DNA from: Ignavibacteriota bacterium
Lineage (GTDB): Bacteria > Bacteroidota > Ignavibacteria > Palsa-1295
Assembly: GCA_963736195.1 (NCBI GenBank)
Contig: CAVTNP010000004.1
Coordinates: 1,229,153 to 1,293,152, forward strand
Direction: 5' to 3'
DNA length: 64,000 nucleotides
In this document: positions 40,666 to 47,176 of the stretch, in pieces
Position numbering within the stretch: the stretch's first letter is position 1
Layout: each line of letters begins with the position of its first letter
Translations under genes and position numbers: made by a program
Notes under the pieces: generated by a model
Seen by the model: only the letters and a program-made list of their open reading frames with translations
Databases searched by the model: none
Told to the model about the DNA's origin: nothing

Positions 40666-41661
40666 TCACTTTTCCCGCTCGATGACATACTGTGCAAATA
40701 GTCGAAGCGCTTCGCGAGATGGGGATTCCGGCAATACCATAAGCGCTTGTGACGCAGCCGCTACTTGTTCTTCAGCCTTTGCTCGTGCGTAGGCAATGCT
40801 TCCATTCGAGGTAACGAACTCCATTATATCACCGTAGGATTCTTTCGCGGCTTTGCCACTTTTTACAAGGCTGAGCATCCGCTTTCTATCGCTGTTGGAT
40901 GCTTTGGAGAGCGCATGGATGAGCGGAAGGGTGAGCTTTTTTTCTTTTAGATCTGCTTCGACAGGTTTGCCGATCTTACCATTCGACGTTTCAAAACCGA
41001 AGAGATCATCTCGAATCTGGAATGCAATTCCCACGGCTTCGCCATAATTTCGCAGGGCATCATGATAAACCTTCCCAACTCCTTCATGCTTATTTGGATA
41101 AATGCTTGCACAACCGAGTTCGCAGCAGGTACTTATTAGCGAAGCCGTTTTGTCCGCGATGATGCGGAAGTACGCTGCCTCATCAATGTTAAGCTGACGG
41201 GCTTTTTGCAGTTGATACAGCTCGCCTTCCGACATTCTTCGCACTGCGTTCGACGTGATCTCTAAAAAATGGTATTCGTTCGTTTGGACGGTACGCAACA
41301 AACCCTGGGCCAGCAGGTAATCCCCCATCAGCACACCAACCTTATTTTTCCAGAGTGCTTTAATACTTGCAAGCCCTCGGCGGAGTTCTGAATCATCGAC
41401 TACGTCATCGTGAATAAGCGTAGCTGTATGGAGTAGCTCTACAAGCGTAGCGGCACGATAGGTTGCATCGTTGACTTGACCGCAGGCTTTCGCAGAAAGC
41501 AGCACCAGCATTGGGCGAAGTTGCTTACCCTTCGTTCGAATAAGATATTTCGCCACCAGATTTACGAGCGGAACGTCCGAGATCATGGCGCGACGGAATT
41601 CGGCATTGAATTCCTTCATCTCACGTTCGACGGGCTGAAGTATTTCCTGGAGTTGGGACAT
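40666..41661 (-). CDS. ispB: Polyprenyl diphosphate synthase (IspB-like, trans-isoprenyl diphosphate synthase)
   Basis: First Asp-rich motif is LIHDDVVDDSELRRG. Second is FQIRDDLFGF. Length 331 aa. Confidence 0.85.
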   Translation of the reverse strand: MSQLQEILQPVEREMKEFNAEFRRAMISDVPLVNLVAKYLIRTKGKQLRPMLVLLSAKACGQVNDATYRAATLVELLHTATLIHDDVVDDSELRRGLASIKALWKNKVGVLMGDYLLAQGLLRTVQTNEYHFLEITSNAVRRMSEGELYQLQKARQLNIDEAAYFRIIADKTASLISTCCELGCASIYPNKHEGVGKVYHDALRNYGEAVGIAFQIRDDLFGFETSNGKIGKPVEADLKEKKLTLPLIHALSKASNSDRKRMLSLVKSGKAAKESYGDIMEFVTSNGSIAYARAKAEEQVAAASQALMVLPESPSREALRLFAQYVIEREK

Positions 41662-41670
41662 AGGATCAGA

Positions 41671-42450
41671 TCAAGACATGGCAGCGGCTTCGGCCTTGCG
41701 CCGCTGCCGTGCCGCAAGCGCCGTGGCTCCGATAGAAAGCTCGAAGAGCGCCCACAGCGGGCCAAACAAAATGAGTTGCAATATGGGATTTCCACCGGGC
41801 GAGAGCACAGCCGCAATAGCAAGCAGGATCACGATCGCATGGCGGCGATAATGCCGCATGAACGTTGGATTAAGAATTCCCAACCGTCCGAGAAAATAAG
41901 CCACCAAGGGAAGCTCGAAAACAATGCCGGATAATAGGATGATCTCCAGAAAAACGGACAGGTACTTATCGATCTGGATCATGTTCTGCACATTGCCGAT
42001 CACGAATCCCATGGAGAAGCTGAGCACCATCGGAAGCATCACCCAATACGCAAATGCAAGACCGCATAAGAAACTGAACACGGTAAAGAAGGTGATCTGG
42101 CTTACATACTTGCGCTCGTTCTCTTTAAGTCCGGGAGACACAAATTTCCAGATCTGCACCAAAGTATAGGGGAAGGAAACGATCACCCCACCCCATAGCA
42201 CGATCGACATCCACACCGAAAGCTGACCGTACACCTCTGTGTTTAGCAGCTTCATCGGAGGATTGGTTTGCATCGTGGGCAGAAGGATCACGTATTCCAT
42301 GATCTGATCGAAAAAGATAGCACACAGCCCCATGCCAACACCGATCCCGATTACCGCGCGGACGACAACCCAGCGCAGCTCTTCGAGATGCTCCCATACG
42401 GACATCTCCTGGTCGGCTTTATTGGGTTCGTTGTTATCCTTTTCGCTCAT
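41671..42450 (-). CDS. tatC: Sec-independent protein translocase subunit TatC
   Basis: MSVWEHLEELRWVVVRAVIGIGVGM N-region, six TM helices, and TatC-conserved LSPGGNP / FELP segments. Confidence 0.85.
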   Translation of the reverse strand: MSEKDNNEPNKADQEMSVWEHLEELRWVVVRAVIGIGVGMGLCAIFFDQIMEYVILLPTMQTNPPMKLLNTEVYGQLSVWMSIVLWGGVIVSFPYTLVQIWKFVSPGLKENERKYVSQITFFTVFSFLCGLAFAYWVMLPMVLSFSMGFVIGNVQNMIQIDKYLSVFLEIILLSGIVFELPLVAYFLGRLGILNPTFMRHYRRHAIVILLAIAAVLSPGGNPILQLILFGPLWALFELSIGATALAARQRRKAEAAAMS

Positions 42451-42549: not shown

Positions 42550-42888
42550 TTATTTTGAGAATCGAGCGTGAACGCTCCCACTCTCCTTGATCACCACCTC
42601 ATAGCCATCTGCATTTGTGGGCAATTTGGATCTTAAGCTATCGGTTAGAACATCTACGAAAATGACGATGGCCGGCTTGCCATCGTTTTGTCCTTCGCCG
42701 GTTCCGGTCACGCCCGGAATGCTCACCCAGCTCGCAGTGTGGTTAGCGAGGACTTCCGAGATCGGCTTGAGCGAGTCACGCAAGGGTTGGCTGGATTGGA
42801 TCTGGGCTGGACTTGAAGGCTGCACATTCGCCGGTTTCGGAGCACACGCTCCGATGAGCAGTACGAAAAATACCCAGACCGTTTTCAT
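42550..42888 (-). CDS. Small lipoprotein homologous to the N-terminal pro-like domain of the adjacent serine protease
   Basis: Lipobox LLIGAC. SWVSIPGVTGTGEGQNDGKPAIVIFVDVLTDSLRSKLPTNADGYEVVIKESGSVHARF aligns with LMAIPGVIGDGVGIDKTNPGKATIVVFTSRDGVEGIPASIEGINTDIKMVGKVTARS of the upstream gene product. Confidence 0.4.
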   Translation of the reverse strand: MKTVWVFFVLLIGACAPKPANVQPSSPAQIQSSQPLRDSLKPISEVLANHTASWVSIPGVTGTGEGQNDGKPAIVIFVDVLTDSLRSKLPTNADGYEVVIKESGSVHARFSK

Positions 42889-42959
42889 GCCTCATCTAAA
42901 AAAAATGGCTCCTGAAAAGCAGGAGCCATTTGTTAAAATTCCAACTCAGGATGGTCTAA

Positions 42960-44213
42960 TTAGAATGACTGTATGAAGGTCAGCCCGAAATCCTTTGCTA
43001 TGTGATCCATTCGGTTCATGAAGGAAGCCTTGGAACTACCGGCGAAATCCAGCCCGACCGGGTCGTTGTTGGTGCTGCCCGTACTATTAACCACTGACAT
43101 CGATCCGCTGTCGCCAGACTCGATGTAAGTTCCGTTATCTACATAGAACTGATCGACAAAGACTGCATTGTAATTCTGGTATCCCACCGTAATCGTCACG
43201 TTGATCGCGTATATGGAGCCGGTGGTGTATCCAGTAGTTCTACCCGTCTTTTTGATCGCCATACCTACACTCGGAGCTACGGGAGTGTTTGAAGGAGTAT
43301 AAGATAATTTGTACGGCTTGGTATTCGGATTCGACATCATTGCAGGAGACCATCCTCCAGAAAGATTAGGATTGCACTCTGCAAGCGCTGCATCGTAGTA
43401 ATTCTTCGTGGCGATGATAGTATTCCACGAGTGGAGATTGCCAACCGCTCCGGCTGAACCGCAGCTCTGATCGGCACGCCCGGGCTGAACCTGCTGCACC
43501 GGCCCGTTCACTGAATCTTCATTGGCAAAGACGTGATTACAGCTTAGCATGTAAACGGGAGTTTTTGTGCCCCAGGAGAACTGGTTGTTATACACCGTCA
43601 TTTTGCCGCCATAGGTGGCTGTTCCGCTCTTGGCGAGCGTGCTGTTCACGAGCGCCCCGATCGAGCCCGCAATACAATATTCGTTCGACACCAGATTGGT
43701 ATCGCCTACTGTGACACCGCATGGAAGGGGTGAACGATAGCTGCCGGTAAACGAACGCGCAGTCACCTTCCCTACCATCTTGATATCGGTGTTGATGCCT
43801 TCGATCGAAGCGGGAATTCCCTCGACGCCATCGCGGCTGGTGAATACGACGATCGTTGCCTTGCCTGGGTTCGTCTTATCGATGCCGACGCCATCACCGA
43901 TCACGCCGGGAATGGCCATCAACGACGCCTCATGGCGGCCCTGAACAGCTATGGCTTGCTGGATGAATACCGGCTGCCCCGACCATTCGGTCGCTCCGGT
44001 GGATGGACCAACGGACGAGGGCAGCGTCCCCGAAGGCGAATTCGGCGCCCCGCTCTGGTCACAGCTTCCCACAACAAAGGAAATGATAAGGAGGCTCAAG
44101 CAGAGACTCGAGCGATTCAAACGTGTAATGTTAGCCATAAGAGTGATAGAATAAACACTAACTTTCAGATTGAGGATGCCGAGCCGTTTGTAGTAAGACT
44201 CATCATTCATCAA
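42960..44213 (-). CDS. Secreted trypsin-fold (S1-like, alpha-lytic-protease-like) serine peptidase, putative
   Basis: Signal/TM LCLSLLIISFVVGSC. Candidate catalytic His is in LSCNHVFAN. Catalytic Ser is in ESGDSGSMSV (compare GDSGG). An N-terminal pro-like domain is present. Identification is motif-level only. Confidence 0.45.
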   Translation of the reverse strand: MMNDESYYKRLGILNLKVSVYSITLMANITRLNRSSLCLSLLIISFVVGSCDQSGAPNSPSGTLPSSVGPSTGATEWSGQPVFIQQAIAVQGRHEASLMAIPGVIGDGVGIDKTNPGKATIVVFTSRDGVEGIPASIEGINTDIKMVGKVTARSFTGSYRSPLPCGVTVGDTNLVSNEYCIAGSIGALVNSTLAKSGTATYGGKMTVYNNQFSWGTKTPVYMLSCNHVFANEDSVNGPVQQVQPGRADQSCGSAGAVGNLHSWNTIIATKNYYDAALAECNPNLSGGWSPAMMSNPNTKPYKLSYTPSNTPVAPSVGMAIKKTGRTTGYTTGSIYAINVTITVGYQNYNAVFVDQFYVDNGTYIESGDSGSMSVVNSTGSTNNDPVGLDFAGSSKASFMNRMDHIAKDFGLTFIQSF

Positions 44214-44488: not shown

Positions 44489-45496
44489 TTATTCCTTCAC
44501 CAATTTAACGGATTGCGCTTCACCATACGCGGTTTGGATGCGCGCGAAGTACGTGCCCGAGGGCAGCCCTGCCAGCGAAAGCGGAACCGATTTATTCCCC
44601 GGCTCGAACAATCCTTCAAACCCGGACCCCGGACCCGGACCCCGGTTCCCGGAACCCGAAACAAGATGCCCCAACACATCGAATAGTTCTATTTTCACAT
44701 ACGCCTCTTTGCTGATGCCAAACGATATTACCGTTCCCTCGCCCGAGGGGTTGGGATACGCGGCGGCGTTGGAGATAATGCCCGGCTGTGGCGTTTCGCT
44801 CACGCTCTCATATAGAAGATGCTTTGCAAGTAGCGTGTCGAGGCCAAGACCAAGCGAAGCGATGGATGGTATGGTGGTATCGAGCGGCACCGACGTGTCA
44901 TTTAGCCAGTCTTCGTATTGAGATGCCCTGGCTCCTTTTATCTCATTTTCTATAAATGGCGTATCGCAGGTAGTGTTCTGAACTAACCATTCATCTATTG
45001 CAAGGGCTTTATTCAGATTAATCCAACCCTGCTCTTCACCACCGGTATCATTCGGGTCGGCAACCTGCATCGCTTCAACACACGCACAGAAGTATTCTGG
45101 GTTCGTCGTATTGAGATAGAGCACCGATTCGAGCCATAGCTGGGCCTGTAGCCAAAGAGAAGTGTCTGACACCTCAAGTGTTTGACGGCTGGCACTGAAC
45201 TCCTGAAACATGGATGGTGCGAAATAATCATTATAGCAAGTTTCGATAAATTTCATGGTTGTATCGTAACATTGCTGCACCTGTCCCGGGCCAGTATAGT
45301 TCCATATCTTAAAGCGCAAGGAATCGCAAGACTCTGTGTCATCTAAGACTTTCCCCATCTCTTCCTCTACCGCCGAGAGATTCCCGCGACCATGGTGTGC
45401 CGGCGCGTTGCCAATCCCTTGCGACTGCGCGAACGAGGAACCGCTCTGCTGCATCAGCAAGAGAAGAAGGGCTATCGTTCTTAATTGATGTACCAT
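44489..45496 (-). CDS. Secreted protein with T9SS C-terminal sorting domain (tandem paralog 1)
   Basis: Signal MVHQLRTIALLLLLMQQSGSSFAQ. The C-terminal ~110 aa AYPNPSGEGTVISFGISKEAYVKIELFDVLGH...SGTYFARIQTAYGEAQSVKLVKE is nearly identical to the 45553-46683 product. It carries an extra SGNRGPGPGSG low-complexity insert. Confidence 0.6.
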   Translation of the reverse strand: MVHQLRTIALLLLLMQQSGSSFAQSQGIGNAPAHHGRGNLSAVEEEMGKVLDDTESCDSLRFKIWNYTGPGQVQQCYDTTMKFIETCYNDYFAPSMFQEFSASRQTLEVSDTSLWLQAQLWLESVLYLNTTNPEYFCACVEAMQVADPNDTGGEEQGWINLNKALAIDEWLVQNTTCDTPFIENEIKGARASQYEDWLNDTSVPLDTTIPSIASLGLGLDTLLAKHLLYESVSETPQPGIISNAAAYPNPSGEGTVISFGISKEAYVKIELFDVLGHLVSGSGNRGPGPGSGFEGLFEPGNKSVPLSLAGLPSGTYFARIQTAYGEAQSVKLVKE

Positions 45497-45552: not shown

Positions 45553-46683
45553 TTATTCCTTCACCAATTTAACGGATTGCGCTTCTCCGTAGGCGGTTTG
45601 GATGCGCGCGAAGTAGGTGCCGGAGGGCAACCCTGCAAGCGATAAGGGAACCGATTTATTCCCCGGCTCGAACAGGCTTTCGAAACCAGCCGAGCCAACT
45701 TCATGCCCGAGCACATCGAATAGCTCTATTTTTACATACGCCTCTTTGCTGATCCCGAACGAGATTACCGTTCCCTCGCCTGTGGGGTTGGGATAGGCGG
45801 CGGCGTTGGAGATAATTCCCGGCTGTGGCATTTCACTCACGCTTTCATAAAACACATGTTTTGCCAGCAGCGTATCGAGCCCATAACCAATTTGAGATAG
45901 CGTGGGAATTGTTGTATCGTAAGGGTAATGAATTCCATCTAACGAATCCTGAGACCACTCCTGAAGTTGCTGCTTTCTAATGCTTTGCCAATCAGCCCAT
46001 TCCTGAGATGAGTCGCAATCAGTGTTAAGAATAAGCCATTTTAGAAATGCTATGCCTCGATTTTGATCCCTGATTCGTTGCTGATTCGTGGTATCATTGT
46101 TGACGTAACCGAAGGATCCAAAGATTTGACCAACGTCGGCGCAAAAATATTCTGGGACAGCGGTGTTCAGATACAGCACCGAGTAAAGCCAGGAACGGTA
46201 TTGTGCGTAAGTGGATGAGTCTTGCGAATAGTTACCGGTCAAGAAATTCTGCACGTCGCTGCCTAAAGCTCCAAACGCCTGCCAGGAATCTGTCCCATAG
46301 GCACATCTATCTATGAATAATTGAAGCGTGTCGTAAGAATCTTGCCACTCCTGAAATTGGGACAACGACTGGCCCACACCAAGAAGATAACTGCAGGTAT
46401 CGTGATTAATAATGGTATCCATGATGGATAGAGTGTTATTGCCATTTTTCTTTTTGGCAGATGTTGCAAGCAAGGTAACCCAATCTTGACACCCCGTTGC
46501 CCATGAAGGGAGAGATGATTTTGCAACTGTGGAACCGGAATCTGCACAATAAGTATTACCATACGCATTTGGCGCACTACTTCTCGCCGACAATTTAGAG
46601 GTATCCAGAATGAATGAGGCGCTGGAAATCGCGAAGACTACCAGAAGGACCAAAGACGCTGTTGTTGAAAGTCTTTTTCTCAT
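45553..46683 (-). CDS. Secreted protein with T9SS C-terminal sorting domain (tandem paralog 2)
   Basis: Signal MRKRLSTTASLVLLVVFAISSA. The central and C-terminal regions are homologous to paralog 1 (LYLNT..PEYFCA.V, DTTIP...GLDTLLAKH..YESVSE.PQPGIISNAAAYPNP.GEGTVISFG). Confidence 0.6.
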   Translation of the reverse strand: MRKRLSTTASLVLLVVFAISSASFILDTSKLSARSSAPNAYGNTYCADSGSTVAKSSLPSWATGCQDWVTLLATSAKKKNGNNTLSIMDTIINHDTCSYLLGVGQSLSQFQEWQDSYDTLQLFIDRCAYGTDSWQAFGALGSDVQNFLTGNYSQDSSTYAQYRSWLYSVLYLNTAVPEYFCADVGQIFGSFGYVNNDTTNQQRIRDQNRGIAFLKWLILNTDCDSSQEWADWQSIRKQQLQEWSQDSLDGIHYPYDTTIPTLSQIGYGLDTLLAKHVFYESVSEMPQPGIISNAAAYPNPTGEGTVISFGISKEAYVKIELFDVLGHEVGSAGFESLFEPGNKSVPLSLAGLPSGTYFARIQTAYGEAQSVKLVKE

Positions 46684-46860
46684 ACGTTAAGATGAGCGAT
46701 GCATATCACGATGATTTCGAACATGGGAGTTCACGGTTTTCGTGCCATCCCTTTAGGGTGCGCAGGGACCAGAGCTTCCATTTCTCAAAGAAATATTCGA
46801 CTATTTTCAACAATCGCTTGACATCGTCCTTTTAATTGCGTAGATTGTATGTGCTATGAT

Positions 46861-46990
46861 AGGCACCCTCTTGGGAAAAGATGAAATATGAAAGATGAAA
46901 GATGAAACGGGGAGGGTTCGGGGAAAAGATGAAATATGAGAGATGAAAGATGAATCCGCCGCGGCGGAGAAAGATGAAATGAGGAAGGGC
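46861..46990. repeat. A-rich short direct-repeat array (AAGATGAAA units, about 8 copies) in divergent intergenic region
   Basis: gaaaagatgaaatatgaaagatgaaagatgaaacgggg...ggaaaagatgaaatatgagagatgaaagatgaatccg...gagaaagatgaaatgagg. It has a two-block structure, each block ending in a G-rich run. Confidence 0.6.
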
Positions 46991-47176
46991 GGGGTTCATT
47001 GACAATCGGCAATAGGTGACTCAAATACTCTACAGTTTATGAATTCCTAATGCAAAAAAAATATTTTGGGAGGCACAAATGGCGAAATTGGCTCAGAATC
47101 GATGGTGTATCGGGAACTCAGAAGAAAGAAAAACGGCACCTATTGCCACAAGAAAGGGGTTGCATGACATTCAAAA

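What the first reader, a model, noticed from the sequence alone, without database searches (positions are those of the whole stretch)
42550..44213. Secreted S1-like serine protease followed by a stand-alone lipoprotein homologous to its own N-terminal pro-like domain
The 417-aa protein has trypsin-fold catalytic motifs (CNHVF, GDSGS) and an N-terminal ~60 aa domain. The 112-aa lipoprotein encoded immediately downstream is a recognisable homolog of that N-terminal domain. The alignment is IPGV.G.G.G…GK..IV.F……IP..I.G…V.IK..G.V.AR. In alpha-lytic-protease-type enzymes the pro region is both folding catalyst and tight inhibitor. A trans-encoded pro-domain paralog could act as a dedicated periplasmic or outer-membrane inhibitor, immunity protein or foldase. 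Such a protease and pro-domain-decoy pair is not a standard annotated system.
Basis: partly seen in the sequence, partly recalled or inferred. Interest (0 to 1): 0.6.

Follow-up and report, generated by a model that had tools for sequence, protein, structure and literature searches.

The report
Protease paired with copy of its N-domain
A membrane-anchored bacterial serine protease related to the rice yield protein NAL1 is followed by a small, never-annotated lipoprotein that is a free-standing copy of the protease's own N-terminal domain, and this gene pair recurs in more than ten bacterial phyla, so the small protein is probably a dedicated partner that controls the protease.

Summary
On the minus strand, 42960-44213 encodes a lipoprotein serine protease. 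Its triad His227/Asp274/Ser369 is invariant in 109 relatives. 42550-42888 encodes a 112-aa lipoprotein whose folded part is homologous to the protease's ~70-aa N-domain (BLASTP E 1e-9; profile-profile 99.4%, E 5e-22).

The small protein belongs to a large unannotated family: 1684 clusters at 50% identity, with no Pfam, NCBIfam or PADLOC match. In 33 of 38 informative genome loci from 12 or more phylum-level lineages it lies directly downstream of such a protease. No third gene is conserved.

The interpretation needs correcting. The N-domain shows no detectable relation to the alpha-lytic-protease pro region (hhalign 0.2-0.4%). N-domain plus catalytic domain align contiguously with rice NAL1's "ATP-binding domain" plus protease domain (94%, E 9e-8; Foldseek E 1e-14). 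In NAL1 that domain stays attached and docks on a neighbouring catalytic domain.

Best reading, which is inferred: the small protein binds its partner's catalytic domain at that docking surface and restrains the enzyme. An assembly or activation cofactor is not excluded. This is a new variant of a known kind (neighbour-encoded, N-domain-derived protease regulators such as Spi/SpeB). Interest is moderate to good.

The parts
42960..44213 (-). Serine protease gene. The ORF is 417 aa from a TTG; the probable true start is the ATG at 44138, giving 392 aa.
   Evidence: ORF list. Orthologues of 392-409 aa start at the equivalent Met. 105 of 109 relatives match Pfam Nal1_C at E<=1; the window protein scores 25.4 bits against a cutoff of 26.1.
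44061..44138 (-). Lipoprotein signal peptide of the protease (M26-C51, lipobox VVGSC).
   Evidence: Read directly from the sequence. A Cys at this position is invariant in 109 relatives (C26 in 392-numbering).
43977..44060 (-). Ser/Pro/Gly-rich disordered tether, about 28 aa, between the lipid anchor and the N-domain.
   Evidence: AF2 pLDDT is about 50 for residues 27-55 of the 392-aa model.
43755..43976 (-). N-domain (residues 80-153 of the 417-aa ORF): one helix and three strands. It is the counterpart of NAL1's ABD / Pfam NAL1_N.
   Evidence: AF2 pLDDT 91-98, with H57-74, E79-86, E94-100 and E115-121 in 392-numbering. hhalign to NAL1 begins at NAL1 residue ~91. Homology to the small protein is shown.
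42963..43718 (-). Chymotrypsin-fold catalytic domain. His227 is at 43533-43535, Asp274 at 43392-43394 and Ser369 at 43107-43109.
   Evidence: The triad is invariant. Foldseek matches NAL1 and S1E proteases.
42895..42931 (-). Intergenic terminator-like hairpin (12-bp stem, 5-nt loop) plus a T-run. It ends just before the GAGG ribosome-binding site and the ATG of the small gene.
   Evidence: Scan and sequence. Similar hairpins occur at the same place in about 13 of 31 related loci.
42550..42888 (-). Small lipoprotein gene (112 aa), a stand-alone paralogue of the N-domain.
42844..42888 (-). Lipoprotein signal peptide of the small protein (M1-C15, lipobox LIGAC).
   Evidence: C15 and A16 are invariant in 10 homologues.
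42562..42771 (-). Folded domain of the small protein (residues 40-109). It ends three residues before the C terminus.
   Evidence: AF2 pLDDT 97-98 with H43-55, E60-68, E71-78, H83-88 and E96-102. In the family as a whole the domain reaches the C terminus.

Best explanation
Shown:
- The segment is a conserved two-gene module.
- Gene 1 encodes a lipid-anchored NAL1-like serine protease. Its order of parts is signal peptide with lipobox, a disordered tether of about 28 aa, an alpha/beta N-domain of about 70 aa, a short low-confidence linker, and a chymotrypsin-fold catalytic domain with an intact His-Asp-Ser triad.
- Gene 2, 71 nt downstream on the same strand, encodes a lipoprotein with a signal peptide with lipobox, a tether of about 25 aa, and one copy of the same domain, ending at the C terminus.
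- The two domain lineages are old paralogues that travel together across 12 or more phylum-level lineages.
- The N-domain corresponds to the 'ATP-binding domain' (NAL1_N) of plant NAL1 but lacks its ATP-binding loops.

Inferred:
- In NAL1 this domain docks hydrophobically onto the catalytic domain of a neighbouring subunit. By analogy, the free-standing copy binds the catalytic domain of its partner protease at the surface used by the enzyme's own N-domain.
- By occupying or competing for that surface it keeps the protease latent or limits its active assembly. It would be a dedicated 'safety' regulator located wherever protection is needed: tethered to the membrane next to the enzyme in this organism, and cytoplasmic in the roughly 12-15% of family members that lack a signal peptide.
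- The direction of the effect (restraint rather than activation) is the least secure step.
For: - **Homology of the small protein and the N-domain:** (99.45%, E 4.6e-22).
- **Size of the small family:** 1684 clusters at E<=1e-3. The top 150 are almost all 56-184 aa stand-alone proteins with the domain at the C terminus.
- **Synteny:** the small gene is directly downstream, same strand, of an N-domain-bearing protease in 33 of 38 informative genome loci. One further locus is split by an IS630-like insertion and one is divergent. Flanking genes differ and no third gene is conserved.
- **NAL1 correspondence:** hhalign A2 against verified NAL1 gives 94.4%, E 9e-8 over 260 contiguous columns starting at the ABD. 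Foldseek aligns about 400 columns at TM 0.57-0.59, against 0.37-0.42 for proteases that have only the catalytic domain. Small proteins give weak NAL1_N hits.
- **NAL1 structure:** ABD-SPD contacts between subunits bury 1,991 A2, build the trimer and are needed for stability and activity (PMC12012508).
- **Accessory rather than obligate:** only 33 of 60 informative proteases from metagenomes have the partner, and 17 of the 27 without it form one clade.
- **Cytoplasmic subclass:** some small proteins start directly at the domain with in-frame stops upstream. Their proteases keep signal peptides and PKD, CARDB or Big domains. This fits a protective inhibitor and not a subunit of the mature exported enzyme.
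- **Tandem versions:** two- and three-domain small proteins exist, as with multi-headed inhibitors.
- **Precedent:** co-transcribed small inhibitors of secreted or lipoprotein proteases are known (Spi/SpeB, staphostatins, Bfi/Bti; PMC3462683).
- **Weak support:** a small protein is slightly more similar to its own partner's N-domain than to others (36.0% against 33.1%, permutation p<5e-5).
Against: - No binding, inhibition or complex prediction could be run.
- In NAL1 the homologous domain is needed for activity, not inhibitory, and higher oligomerisation activates the enzyme. A free copy could equally promote assembly.
- A terminator-like hairpin lies between the genes here and in about 13 of 31 loci. 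It would give less small-protein mRNA than protease mRNA, which is unusual for a stoichiometric inhibitor.
- The excess similarity to the cognate N-domain may reflect shared genome composition.
- The NAL1_N relation rests on one contiguous profile alignment and a fold match. The domain alone scores weakly (hhalign ~10%, E 0.003; hmmscan E 0.035-0.18).
Confidence: 0.4

Rival explanations
1. Assembly or folding cofactor. The small protein would be a positive partner: a trans-acting extra N-domain that stabilises the catalytic domain or completes an active hetero-oligomer. It would replace the role that the plant-specific N-terminal strand exchange plays in making active NAL1 hexamers.
For: - In NAL1 the homologous domain is essential for folding, stability and activity, and trimers alone are inactive until a further interface forms.
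- Bacterial homologues lack NAL1's residues 1-88.
- S1E relatives depend on helper domains for folding (own knowledge: alpha-lytic protease pro region).
- A lower expression level, implied by the intergenic hairpin, suits a catalytic chaperone.
Against: - Each protease already has its own N-domain.
- About 45% of sampled proteases lack an adjacent partner.
- About 12-15% of small proteins have no signal peptide while their proteases are exported. They cannot be subunits of the mature enzyme.
Confidence: 0.25
2. The N-domain would be a cleavable alpha-lytic-protease-type pro region (intramolecular chaperone and inhibitor). The small protein would be a pro-region decoy that blocks the active site, for example with its C-terminal tail.
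For: - The catalytic domain is related to S1E enzymes.
- The linker after the N-domain has low confidence and is Gly-rich and variable in relatives.
- Many small proteins end one to a few residues after the last strand.
- The residue after the conserved Ala is identical in the small protein and the cognate N-domain in 10 of 28 pairs, against 5.8 expected (p 0.03).
- Foldseek places 2pro_A at rmsd 2.9 A over 64 columns, although with E 0.31.
Against: - No sequence or profile relation to the pro region.
- The fold hit is not significant and ranks 40th among unrelated small alpha/beta domains.
- The closest solved homologue, NAL1, keeps the domain attached in the active enzyme.
- C-terminal tails vary in length and sequence.
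Confidence: 0.12
3. Independent paralogue. The domain would be a ligand-, substrate- or envelope-binding module. The small protein would use it on its own, for example as an adaptor or decoy for the protease's substrate, without touching the protease. Synteny would then reflect co-regulation only.
For: - No direct evidence of contact exists.
- Three related loci (L038, L039, L042) carry the small gene without a protease nearby.
- Half of the proteases lack the partner.
Against: - Adjacency of about 90% across 12 or more phylum-level lineages, despite changing flanks, is typical of physically interacting pairs.
- In NAL1 the domain's documented partner is the catalytic domain itself.
Confidence: 0.15
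4. The small ORF is a non-functional remnant of a partial duplication of the protease's 5' end.
For: The BLASTP alignment even includes the lipobox and linker.
Against: - The family has 1684 clusters.
- 32 columns are invariant among 10 homologues at 54-64% identity.
- The family forms its own profile clade, distinct from the N-domains: 100-138 bits against 18-68 bits.
- It is conserved across phyla.
Confidence: 0.01

Closest known systems
Rice NARROW LEAF 1 (NAL1; PDB 7Y77, 8PMG, 8PMM, 8HAS; Pfam NAL1_N + Nal1_C)
   Same: - It has the same two-domain core: a small alpha/beta domain followed by a chymotrypsin-fold protease with a His-Asp-Ser triad.
- It is the best sequence, profile and fold match.
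   Different: - NAL1 is cytosolic/nuclear and has an extra N-terminal region (1-88) that makes hexamers.
- It binds ATP through long basic loops that are absent here (PMC12012508).
- The bacterial enzymes are exported lipoproteins, often with PKD, CARDB or Big tails.
- No free-standing copy of the domain is described for NAL1.
Spi / SpeB of Streptococcus pyogenes (MEROPS I69), and more broadly propeptide-like inhibitors (I9 such as yeast PBI2; I29 such as CTLA-2)
   Same: - A small protein homologous to the protease's own N-terminal region.
- For Spi, the gene is encoded next to and co-transcribed with the protease gene (PMC3462683).
- Spi's homology to the SpeB propeptide, and the I9 and I29 families, are from my own knowledge (Kagawa et al. 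2005; MEROPS).
   Different: - Those are cysteine or subtilisin-type systems whose template is a genuine cleaved propeptide.
- Here the enzyme is a chymotrypsin-fold serine protease, and the template domain is permanent in the nearest solved homologue.
- Inhibition has not been shown.
- Spi is cytoplasmic, whereas this small protein is a lipoprotein.
Staphostatin/staphopain and the Bacteroides Bfi/Bfp and Bti/Btp pairs
   Same: - Small cognate inhibitors transcriptionally coupled to secreted or lipoprotein proteases.
- They are thought to guard against premature activity (PMC3462683).
   Different: - Staphostatins are unrelated in sequence to their proteases.
- The protease class is different (cysteine).
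Alpha-lytic protease pro region (PDB 2PRO, 4PRO; Pfam PF02983) and other S1E pro regions
   Same: - An N-terminal helper domain in front of an S1E-like catalytic domain.
- The catalytic domains are related.
   Different: No detectable homology of the N-domain or of the small protein to the pro region. The fold hit is not significant.
Yeast Ssy5 (Peptidase S64)
   Same: - 76 of 109 relatives give weak S64 hits in the catalytic domain.
- Ssy5 keeps a non-covalently bound inhibitory N-terminal domain after self-cleavage (own knowledge).
   Different: - Ssy5's prodomain is large and unrelated.
- It has no separate paralogue gene.
- The hits are below Pfam's threshold.

Membership tests
Chymotrypsin-fold (clan PA) serine protease | His, Asp and Ser catalytic residues in that order, and conserved. 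| tested here: met
   H202, D249 and S344 (392-numbering) are invariant in 109 sequences. The motifs CNHVF, DAALA and GDSGS are located.
Chymotrypsin-fold (clan PA) serine protease | Double beta-barrel fold. | tested here: met
   AF2 pLDDT 85.6, pTM 0.83. Foldseek matches NAL1 at E 1e-14 and alpha-lytic protease, SGPB, L5 and TFPA at E 1e-9 to 1e-8.
Pfam Nal1_C (PF25819) | Score at or above the gathering threshold (26.1 bits). | tested here: inconclusive
   The window protein scores 25.4-25.5 bits, just below the threshold. 105 of 109 relatives match at E<=1, with a best value of 5e-11.
NAL1-type architecture | A small alpha/beta domain (ABD / NAL1_N) directly N-terminal to the protease domain and homologous to NAL1's. 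| tested here: met
   hhalign gives 94.4%, E 9.3e-8 over 260 contiguous columns from NAL1 residue ~91 to ~409. Foldseek aligns about 400 columns. The domain alone is weak: E 0.003, probability ~10%, and hmmscan NAL1_N E 0.035-0.18.
NAL1-type architecture | ATP binding by R120, R122, K123, K139 and loop 137-153. | tested here: not met
   These loops are shortened and the basic residues are not conserved in the alignment. Residue numbering was checked against the verified NAL1 sequence. The proteins are exported, so ATP is not expected to be available.
NAL1-type architecture | N-terminal region (1-88) whose strand exchange forms the hexamer. | tested here: not met
   It is replaced by a signal peptide plus a disordered tether.
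NAL1-type architecture | Trimer built by contacts between the N-domain and a neighbour's catalytic domain. | not testable with these tools
   This needs a multimer prediction or SEC/cryo-EM. It is known only for NAL1 (PMC12012508).
Alpha-lytic-protease-type pro region (PF02983) | Sequence or profile similarity to the pro region. | tested here: not met
   No Pfam hit for the window proteins, for 135 small-family members, or for the family consensus sequences. The profile search against PDB finds nothing. hhalign against the verified 2PRO sequence gives probability 0.2-0.4%.
Alpha-lytic-protease-type pro region (PF02983) | Same fold as the pro region. | tested here: inconclusive
Alpha-lytic-protease-type pro region (PF02983) | Autocatalytic removal of the domain, and dependence of folding on it. 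| not testable with these tools
   Needs protein chemistry.
Neighbour-encoded inhibitor derived from the protease's own N-terminal region (Spi/SpeB type) | The small protein is homologous to the N-terminal region of the adjacent protease. | tested here: met
Neighbour-encoded inhibitor derived from the protease's own N-terminal region (Spi/SpeB type) | Conserved adjacency and co-orientation with the protease gene. | tested here: met
   33 of 38 informative genome loci. 33 of 60 informative protease-centred metagenome loci.
Neighbour-encoded inhibitor derived from the protease's own N-terminal region (Spi/SpeB type) | Inhibits the cognate protease. | not testable with these tools
   Needs an enzyme assay or a complex model.
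Neighbour-encoded inhibitor derived from the protease's own N-terminal region (Spi/SpeB type) | Cytoplasmic location, guarding against premature activity. | tested here: not met
   The window protein and about 70% of the family have signal peptides, mostly with a lipobox. About 12-15% lack one.
Bacterial lipoprotein (both products) | An n-region, an h-region and a lipobox ending in Cys. | tested here: met
   VVGSC in the protease and LIGAC in the small protein. The Cys is invariant in the relatives.

The most novel reading that the evidence does not exclude
The small proteins are a new class of protease regulator that works by domain mimicry. A free copy of the enzyme's own docking (ABD-like) domain would compete for the inter-subunit N-domain/catalytic-domain interface, and so set whether the protease assembles into its active oligomer. 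As a corollary, the 'ATP-binding domain' of plant NAL1 would descend from a bacterial protein-docking module. NAL1-type proteases would then be regulated through that interface.
Probability: 0.25. Interest if true: 0.7.

Novelty: new variant of a known kind. Interest (0 to 1): 0.55.

Why it matters
- **A new family.** The work defines a large, phylum-spanning, completely unannotated family of small proteins. It gives that family a concrete, testable partner: bacterial NAL1-like serine proteases.
- **A new regulator for this fold.** If the small protein restrains or assembles the enzyme through the N-domain docking surface, it adds a new regulator to the chymotrypsin fold. I know of no neighbour-encoded, self-derived regulator for this fold (from my own knowledge).
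- **A bacterial model for NAL1.** The pair offers a simple bacterial system for how the N-domain/catalytic-domain interface controls NAL1, a protease of agronomic importance in rice.
- **Annotation.** The work corrects a tempting mis-annotation of the N-domain as a pro region. It also supplies profiles that could seed a new Pfam family.

Tried and rejected
- **Alpha-lytic pro-region homology.** I tested this by Pfam, a PDB profile search, hhalign against the verified 2PRO sequence, and Foldseek. It is rejected at the sequence level and not significant at the fold level.
- **Wasted homologue search.** The third homologue search, seeded with a NAL1 fragment, returned only exon-sized fragments without the ABD. 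I used the NAL1 sequence verified against PDB instead.
- **Alignment too diverse.** A3 was too diverse for the locus scan, so I used a narrower alignment (A4).
- **Third conserved gene.** None was found. The next 'families' were antisense ORFs inside the protease gene.
- **Defence-system membership.** No PADLOC hit. No NCBIfam hit either.
- **C-terminal tail as a product-like active-site ligand.** Tails vary in length and sequence. Covariation of the residue after the conserved Ala is weak (p 0.03, not corrected for phylogeny).
- **tatC as part of the system.** tatC lies immediately downstream, but it is absent from the orthologous loci.
- **Remnant of a partial duplication.** Rejected on conservation.
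- **Twin-arginine 'hitchhiker' export.** I considered this for the small proteins without signal peptides. Their proteases carry ordinary Sec or lipoprotein signals.
Full report
**What is in the window.**

Two co-oriented ORFs on the minus strand occupy exactly the reported coordinates.

The upstream ORF (42960-44213) is 417 aa from a TTG. Orthologues of 392-409 aa begin at the equivalent of Met26 (MANITRL..., ATG at 44138), so the product is probably 392 aa. It reads as follows:
- a signal peptide with lipobox VVGSC (Cys51);
- a Ser/Pro/Gly-rich tether of about 28 aa;
- a domain of about 70 aa (residues 80-153);
- a short linker;
- a catalytic domain with CNHVF (His227), DAALA (Asp274) and GDSGS (Ser369).

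The downstream ORF (42550-42888, 112 aa) starts 71 nt after the protease stop. It has lipobox LIGAC (Cys15), a Pro/Ser/Gln-rich tether of about 25 aa, and a domain that ends three residues before the C terminus.

Window G+C is even at about 0.5. The nearest relatives come from Ignavibacteriota / 'Candidatus Kapabacteria' MAGs.

**Check of the observation.**

- BLASTP of the two products gives E 1e-9, 34% identity over about 110 residues. The alignment includes lipobox, linker and the whole domain.
- HMMs built from each family find the other: the small-family profile hits the protease N-domain at 3e-11, and the N-domain profile hits the small protein at 4e-8.
- hhalign of the two family alignments gives probability 99.45%, E 4.6e-22 over 63 columns.

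The similarity covers a helix, a hairpin and the following strands, not only a hairpin.

**The protease.**

The His, Asp and Ser residues are invariant in 109 relatives. The AlphaFold2 model is confident: pLDDT 85.6, pTM 0.83, and the N-domain scores 91-98.

Foldseek against the PDB gives two tiers of hit:
- Rice NAL1 first, at E about 1e-14, with about 400 aligned columns and TM 0.57-0.59.
- Then alpha-lytic protease, SGPB, Lysobacter L5 and TFPA, at E 1e-9 to 1e-8, with about 260 columns and TM 0.37-0.42.

Sequence searches agree. 105 of 109 relatives match Pfam Nal1_C, and the window protein is just under the threshold at 25.4 against 26.1 bits. PDB sequence and profile searches hit NAL1 and S1E enzymes. 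Longer relatives carry C-terminal PKD, CARDB or Big domains, typical of exported proteases.

**What the N-domain is.**

It has no Pfam or NCBIfam match at family thresholds.
- PF02983 is not hit by the window proteins, by 135 members of the small family, or by the family consensus sequences.
- The family profile finds nothing relevant in PDB sequences.
- I recovered the true 2PRO sequence. hhalign of either family profile against it gives probability 0.2-0.4%.
- Foldseek of the small-protein model (pLDDT 84; 97-98 in the domain) gives no significant PDB hit. 2pro_A appears only at rank 40 (E 0.31, rmsd 2.9 A over 64 columns), among KH, MamM, EscJ and adenylation-domain fragments.

The NAL1 test gave a different result. 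I verified the NAL1 sequence against PDB. The protease family profile aligns to it in one contiguous block: probability 94.4%, E 9.3e-8, 260 columns. The block runs from NAL1 residue ~91, the start of its 'ATP-binding domain' (ABD, 89-172), through the protease domain. The extra TM-score of NAL1 over proteases with only a catalytic domain fits the N-domain being superposed as well. Small-family members and their consensus give weak hits to Pfam NAL1_N (E 0.035-0.18), and the domain alone aligns in the same register at E about 0.003.

I therefore treat the N-domain as the bacterial counterpart of NAL1's ABD / NAL1_N. The caveat is that this rests on the two-domain alignment and the fold match. 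NAL1's ATP-binding loops (R120, R122, K123; loop 137-153) are shortened and not conserved.

According to PMC12012508, NAL1's ABD stays part of the active enzyme. It packs hydrophobically (1,991 A2) on the protease domain of the neighbouring subunit to build the trimer, and it is needed for stability and activity. Hexamer formation through the plant-specific N terminus is then required to align the triad.

**The small protein is a member of a large unannotated family.**

The word-indexed search found only 10 close homologues, all lipoproteins. The exhaustive profile search found 1684 cluster representatives at E<=1e-3 and 343 at E<=1e-10. The top 150 are almost all 56-184 aa, with the domain at the C terminus. 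None matches Pfam. Named members are all 'hypothetical protein', and PADLOC has nothing.

Of 160 members examined:
- about 70% have a signal peptide (71 with a lipobox-like site, 41 others);
- about 12-15% start directly at the domain;
- 4 hits carry two or three matched domains: three are tandem repeats of the small domain, and the fourth (P0172) looks like a deletion or chimera.

For five genome loci (L009, L021, L026, L027, L033) I confirmed in-frame stop codons just upstream. Those versions truly lack a signal peptide, although their proteases have Sec or lipoprotein signals.

**Co-conservation.**

*From the small protein's side.* A genome scan returned 40 loci. They come from Ignavibacteriota/Kapabacteria, Bacteroidota, Krumholzibacteriota, Eisenbacteria, GN15, Planctomycetota, Gemmatimonadota, Gamma- and Alphaproteobacteria, Verrucomicrobiota, Chloroflexota, Deferrimicrobium and Binatia.
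- In 33 of 38 informative loci the small gene lies directly downstream, on the same strand, of a protease with both N-domain and catalytic domain.
- In L026 an IS630-like element separates them.
- In L044 they are divergent neighbours.
- L038, L039 and L042, one related subgroup, have no protease nearby.
- Flanking genes differ even between close relatives, and clustering of all neighbouring ORFs finds no third conserved gene.

*From the protease's side.* In 80 metagenome loci, 33 of 60 informative proteases have the partner. Of the 27 without it, 17 fall in a single clade of at least 75% identity.

The small protein thus almost never occurs without the protease. The protease can occur without an adjacent partner, which is the pattern of an accessory factor. 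The two domain lineages are distinct: small proteins score 100-138 bits on their own profile, while N-domains score 18-68 bits on it. That indicates an old duplication followed by joint inheritance.

**How it most likely works.**

The shown facts are the anatomy, the homology, the NAL1 correspondence, the synteny and the localisation signals. The rest is inferred.

The only documented binding partner of this domain type is the catalytic domain of the same protease family, through NAL1's inter-subunit ABD-SPD interface. The simplest model is therefore that the free copy binds its partner's catalytic domain at that surface. Here both proteins hang from the membrane on tethers of similar length, which would place the two folded parts side by side.

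I favour a restraining role (latency or safety factor, confidence about 0.4) over an activating one (about 0.25) for four reasons:
1. The partner is dispensable for a sizeable clade of proteases.
2. A subclass of partners is cytoplasmic while its protease is exported. That can protect a compartment, but such a partner cannot be part of the mature enzyme.
3. Tandem two- and three-domain versions resemble multi-headed inhibitors.
4. There is a precedent for co-transcribed small inhibitors of secreted or lipoprotein proteases (PMC3462683). In one of these, Spi, the inhibitor is homologous to the protease's own N-terminal segment (own knowledge, Kagawa et al. 2005).

Against this:
- In NAL1 the domain and higher assembly promote activity.
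- The intergenic terminator-like hairpin, present here and in about 13 of 31 loci, would give less small-protein mRNA than protease mRNA.

Weak signals of co-adaptation exist. Identity to the cognate N-domain is 36.0% against 33.1% for non-cognate ones (p<5e-5). The residue after the conserved Ala is identical in 10 of 28 pairs against 5.8 expected (p 0.03). Both may reflect shared genome composition or phylogeny.

**Comparison with what is known, and novelty.**

The enzyme is a new bacterial member of the NAL1-like branch of chymotrypsin-fold proteases. It lacks NAL1's ATP site and hexamer-forming N terminus.

The gene pair resembles Spi/SpeB and other propeptide-like inhibitors in logic. It differs in protease class, in fold, and in that the template domain is not known to be a cleaved propeptide. 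It is not a member of the alpha-lytic pro-region family by any test I could run.

I found no paper describing bacterial NAL1 homologues with such a partner. I rate it a new variant of a known kind, with interest 0.55. The pair is robust, widespread and unannotated, and it offers a tractable model for NAL1-type regulation. Its function is still inferred, and all carriers seen are uncultured lineages.

Noticed in passing
window 42895-42931 (-); also the intergenic regions of L002, L004, L007, L008, L009, L010, L016, L018, L020, L025, L027: A strong GC-rich hairpin followed by a T-run sits between the protease stop and the small gene's ribosome-binding site, in several phyla. In other lineages the two genes abut or overlap. 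This suggests attenuated or differential expression of the small gene.
   Followed up: partly
L009 2381-2614, L021 10064-10282, L026 9992-10219, L027 9992-10228, L033 9995-10228; P0141, P0151, P0156, P0176, P0197 and others: About 12-15% of small-family members have no signal peptide. They start at the domain, with in-frame stops upstream. Their partner proteases are exported and carry PKD, CARDB or Big domains.
   Followed up: partly
P0132 (255 aa), P0185 (176 aa), P0256 (162 aa): Small-family proteins with three or two tandem copies of the domain behind one signal peptide. A three-copy version would match a trimeric target, but this was not tested.
   Followed up: no
L038 9890-10225, L039 7233-7589, L042 7317-7742: A subgroup (Eisenbacteria and a MAG labelled Binatia) carries the small gene with no protease nearby. 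It sits in a shared context after a secreted protein whose sequence looks NTF2/SnoaL-like to my eye; no family search was run on it.
   Followed up: partly
L060-L124, for example L066, L068, L071, L085, L087: About 45% of sampled proteases of this family have no adjacent small gene. 17 of the 27 form one clade of at least 75% identity from soil metagenomes. Whether the partner is lost or encoded elsewhere is unknown.
   Followed up: partly
L026 8423-9992: An IS630-like transposase (two ORFs) is inserted between the protease and the small gene of a Dehalococcoidia MAG.
   Followed up: yes
L010 7303-10228; L067 2920-5519; L090 832-3446; L020 3325-5489: Copy-number variants of the module: two tandem protease paralogues followed by one small gene (L010, L067, L090), and one protease followed by two small genes (L020).
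   Followed up: no
L045 2-688; P0172: Two odd fusions were seen. In L045 the small domain is joined by a poly-Gly linker to the C terminus of an upstream ORF at a contig edge. P0172 is a 250-aa ORF with an N-domain, a truncated catalytic domain and a small domain; it may be a deletion or an assembly chimera.
   Followed up: no
protease and small-protein N termini (P0011-P0130 against P0001-P0010 and P0131-P0280): Residues just after the lipid-modified Cys differ between the two families. 70% of proteases have D/E within five residues, against 42% of small proteins. In this clade the protease reads C-DQSG and the small protein reads C-APKP. This could mean different lipoprotein sorting, surface against periplasmic face, but that is speculative.
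   Followed up: partly
window 44489-45496 (-) and 45553-46683 (-): Two tandem paralogous proteins with type IX secretion C-terminal sorting domains lie just upstream of the protease. They are 55% identical overall, but nearly identical over the last ~95 residues apart from a 9-residue indel, which suggests gene conversion.
   Followed up: partly
window 41671-42450 (-) and 40666-41661 (-): tatC and a polyprenyl synthase gene follow the small gene on the same strand. This neighbourhood is not conserved in the orthologous loci L002 and L004.
   Followed up: yes
window 46832-47024: The heptamer AAAGATG is repeated 4.4 times at 46877-46907. Overlapping short ORFs there encode repeated FIFHLSYFIFS-like peptides. 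The region lies in an intergenic stretch upstream of an apolipoprotein N-acyltransferase-like gene.
   Followed up: no
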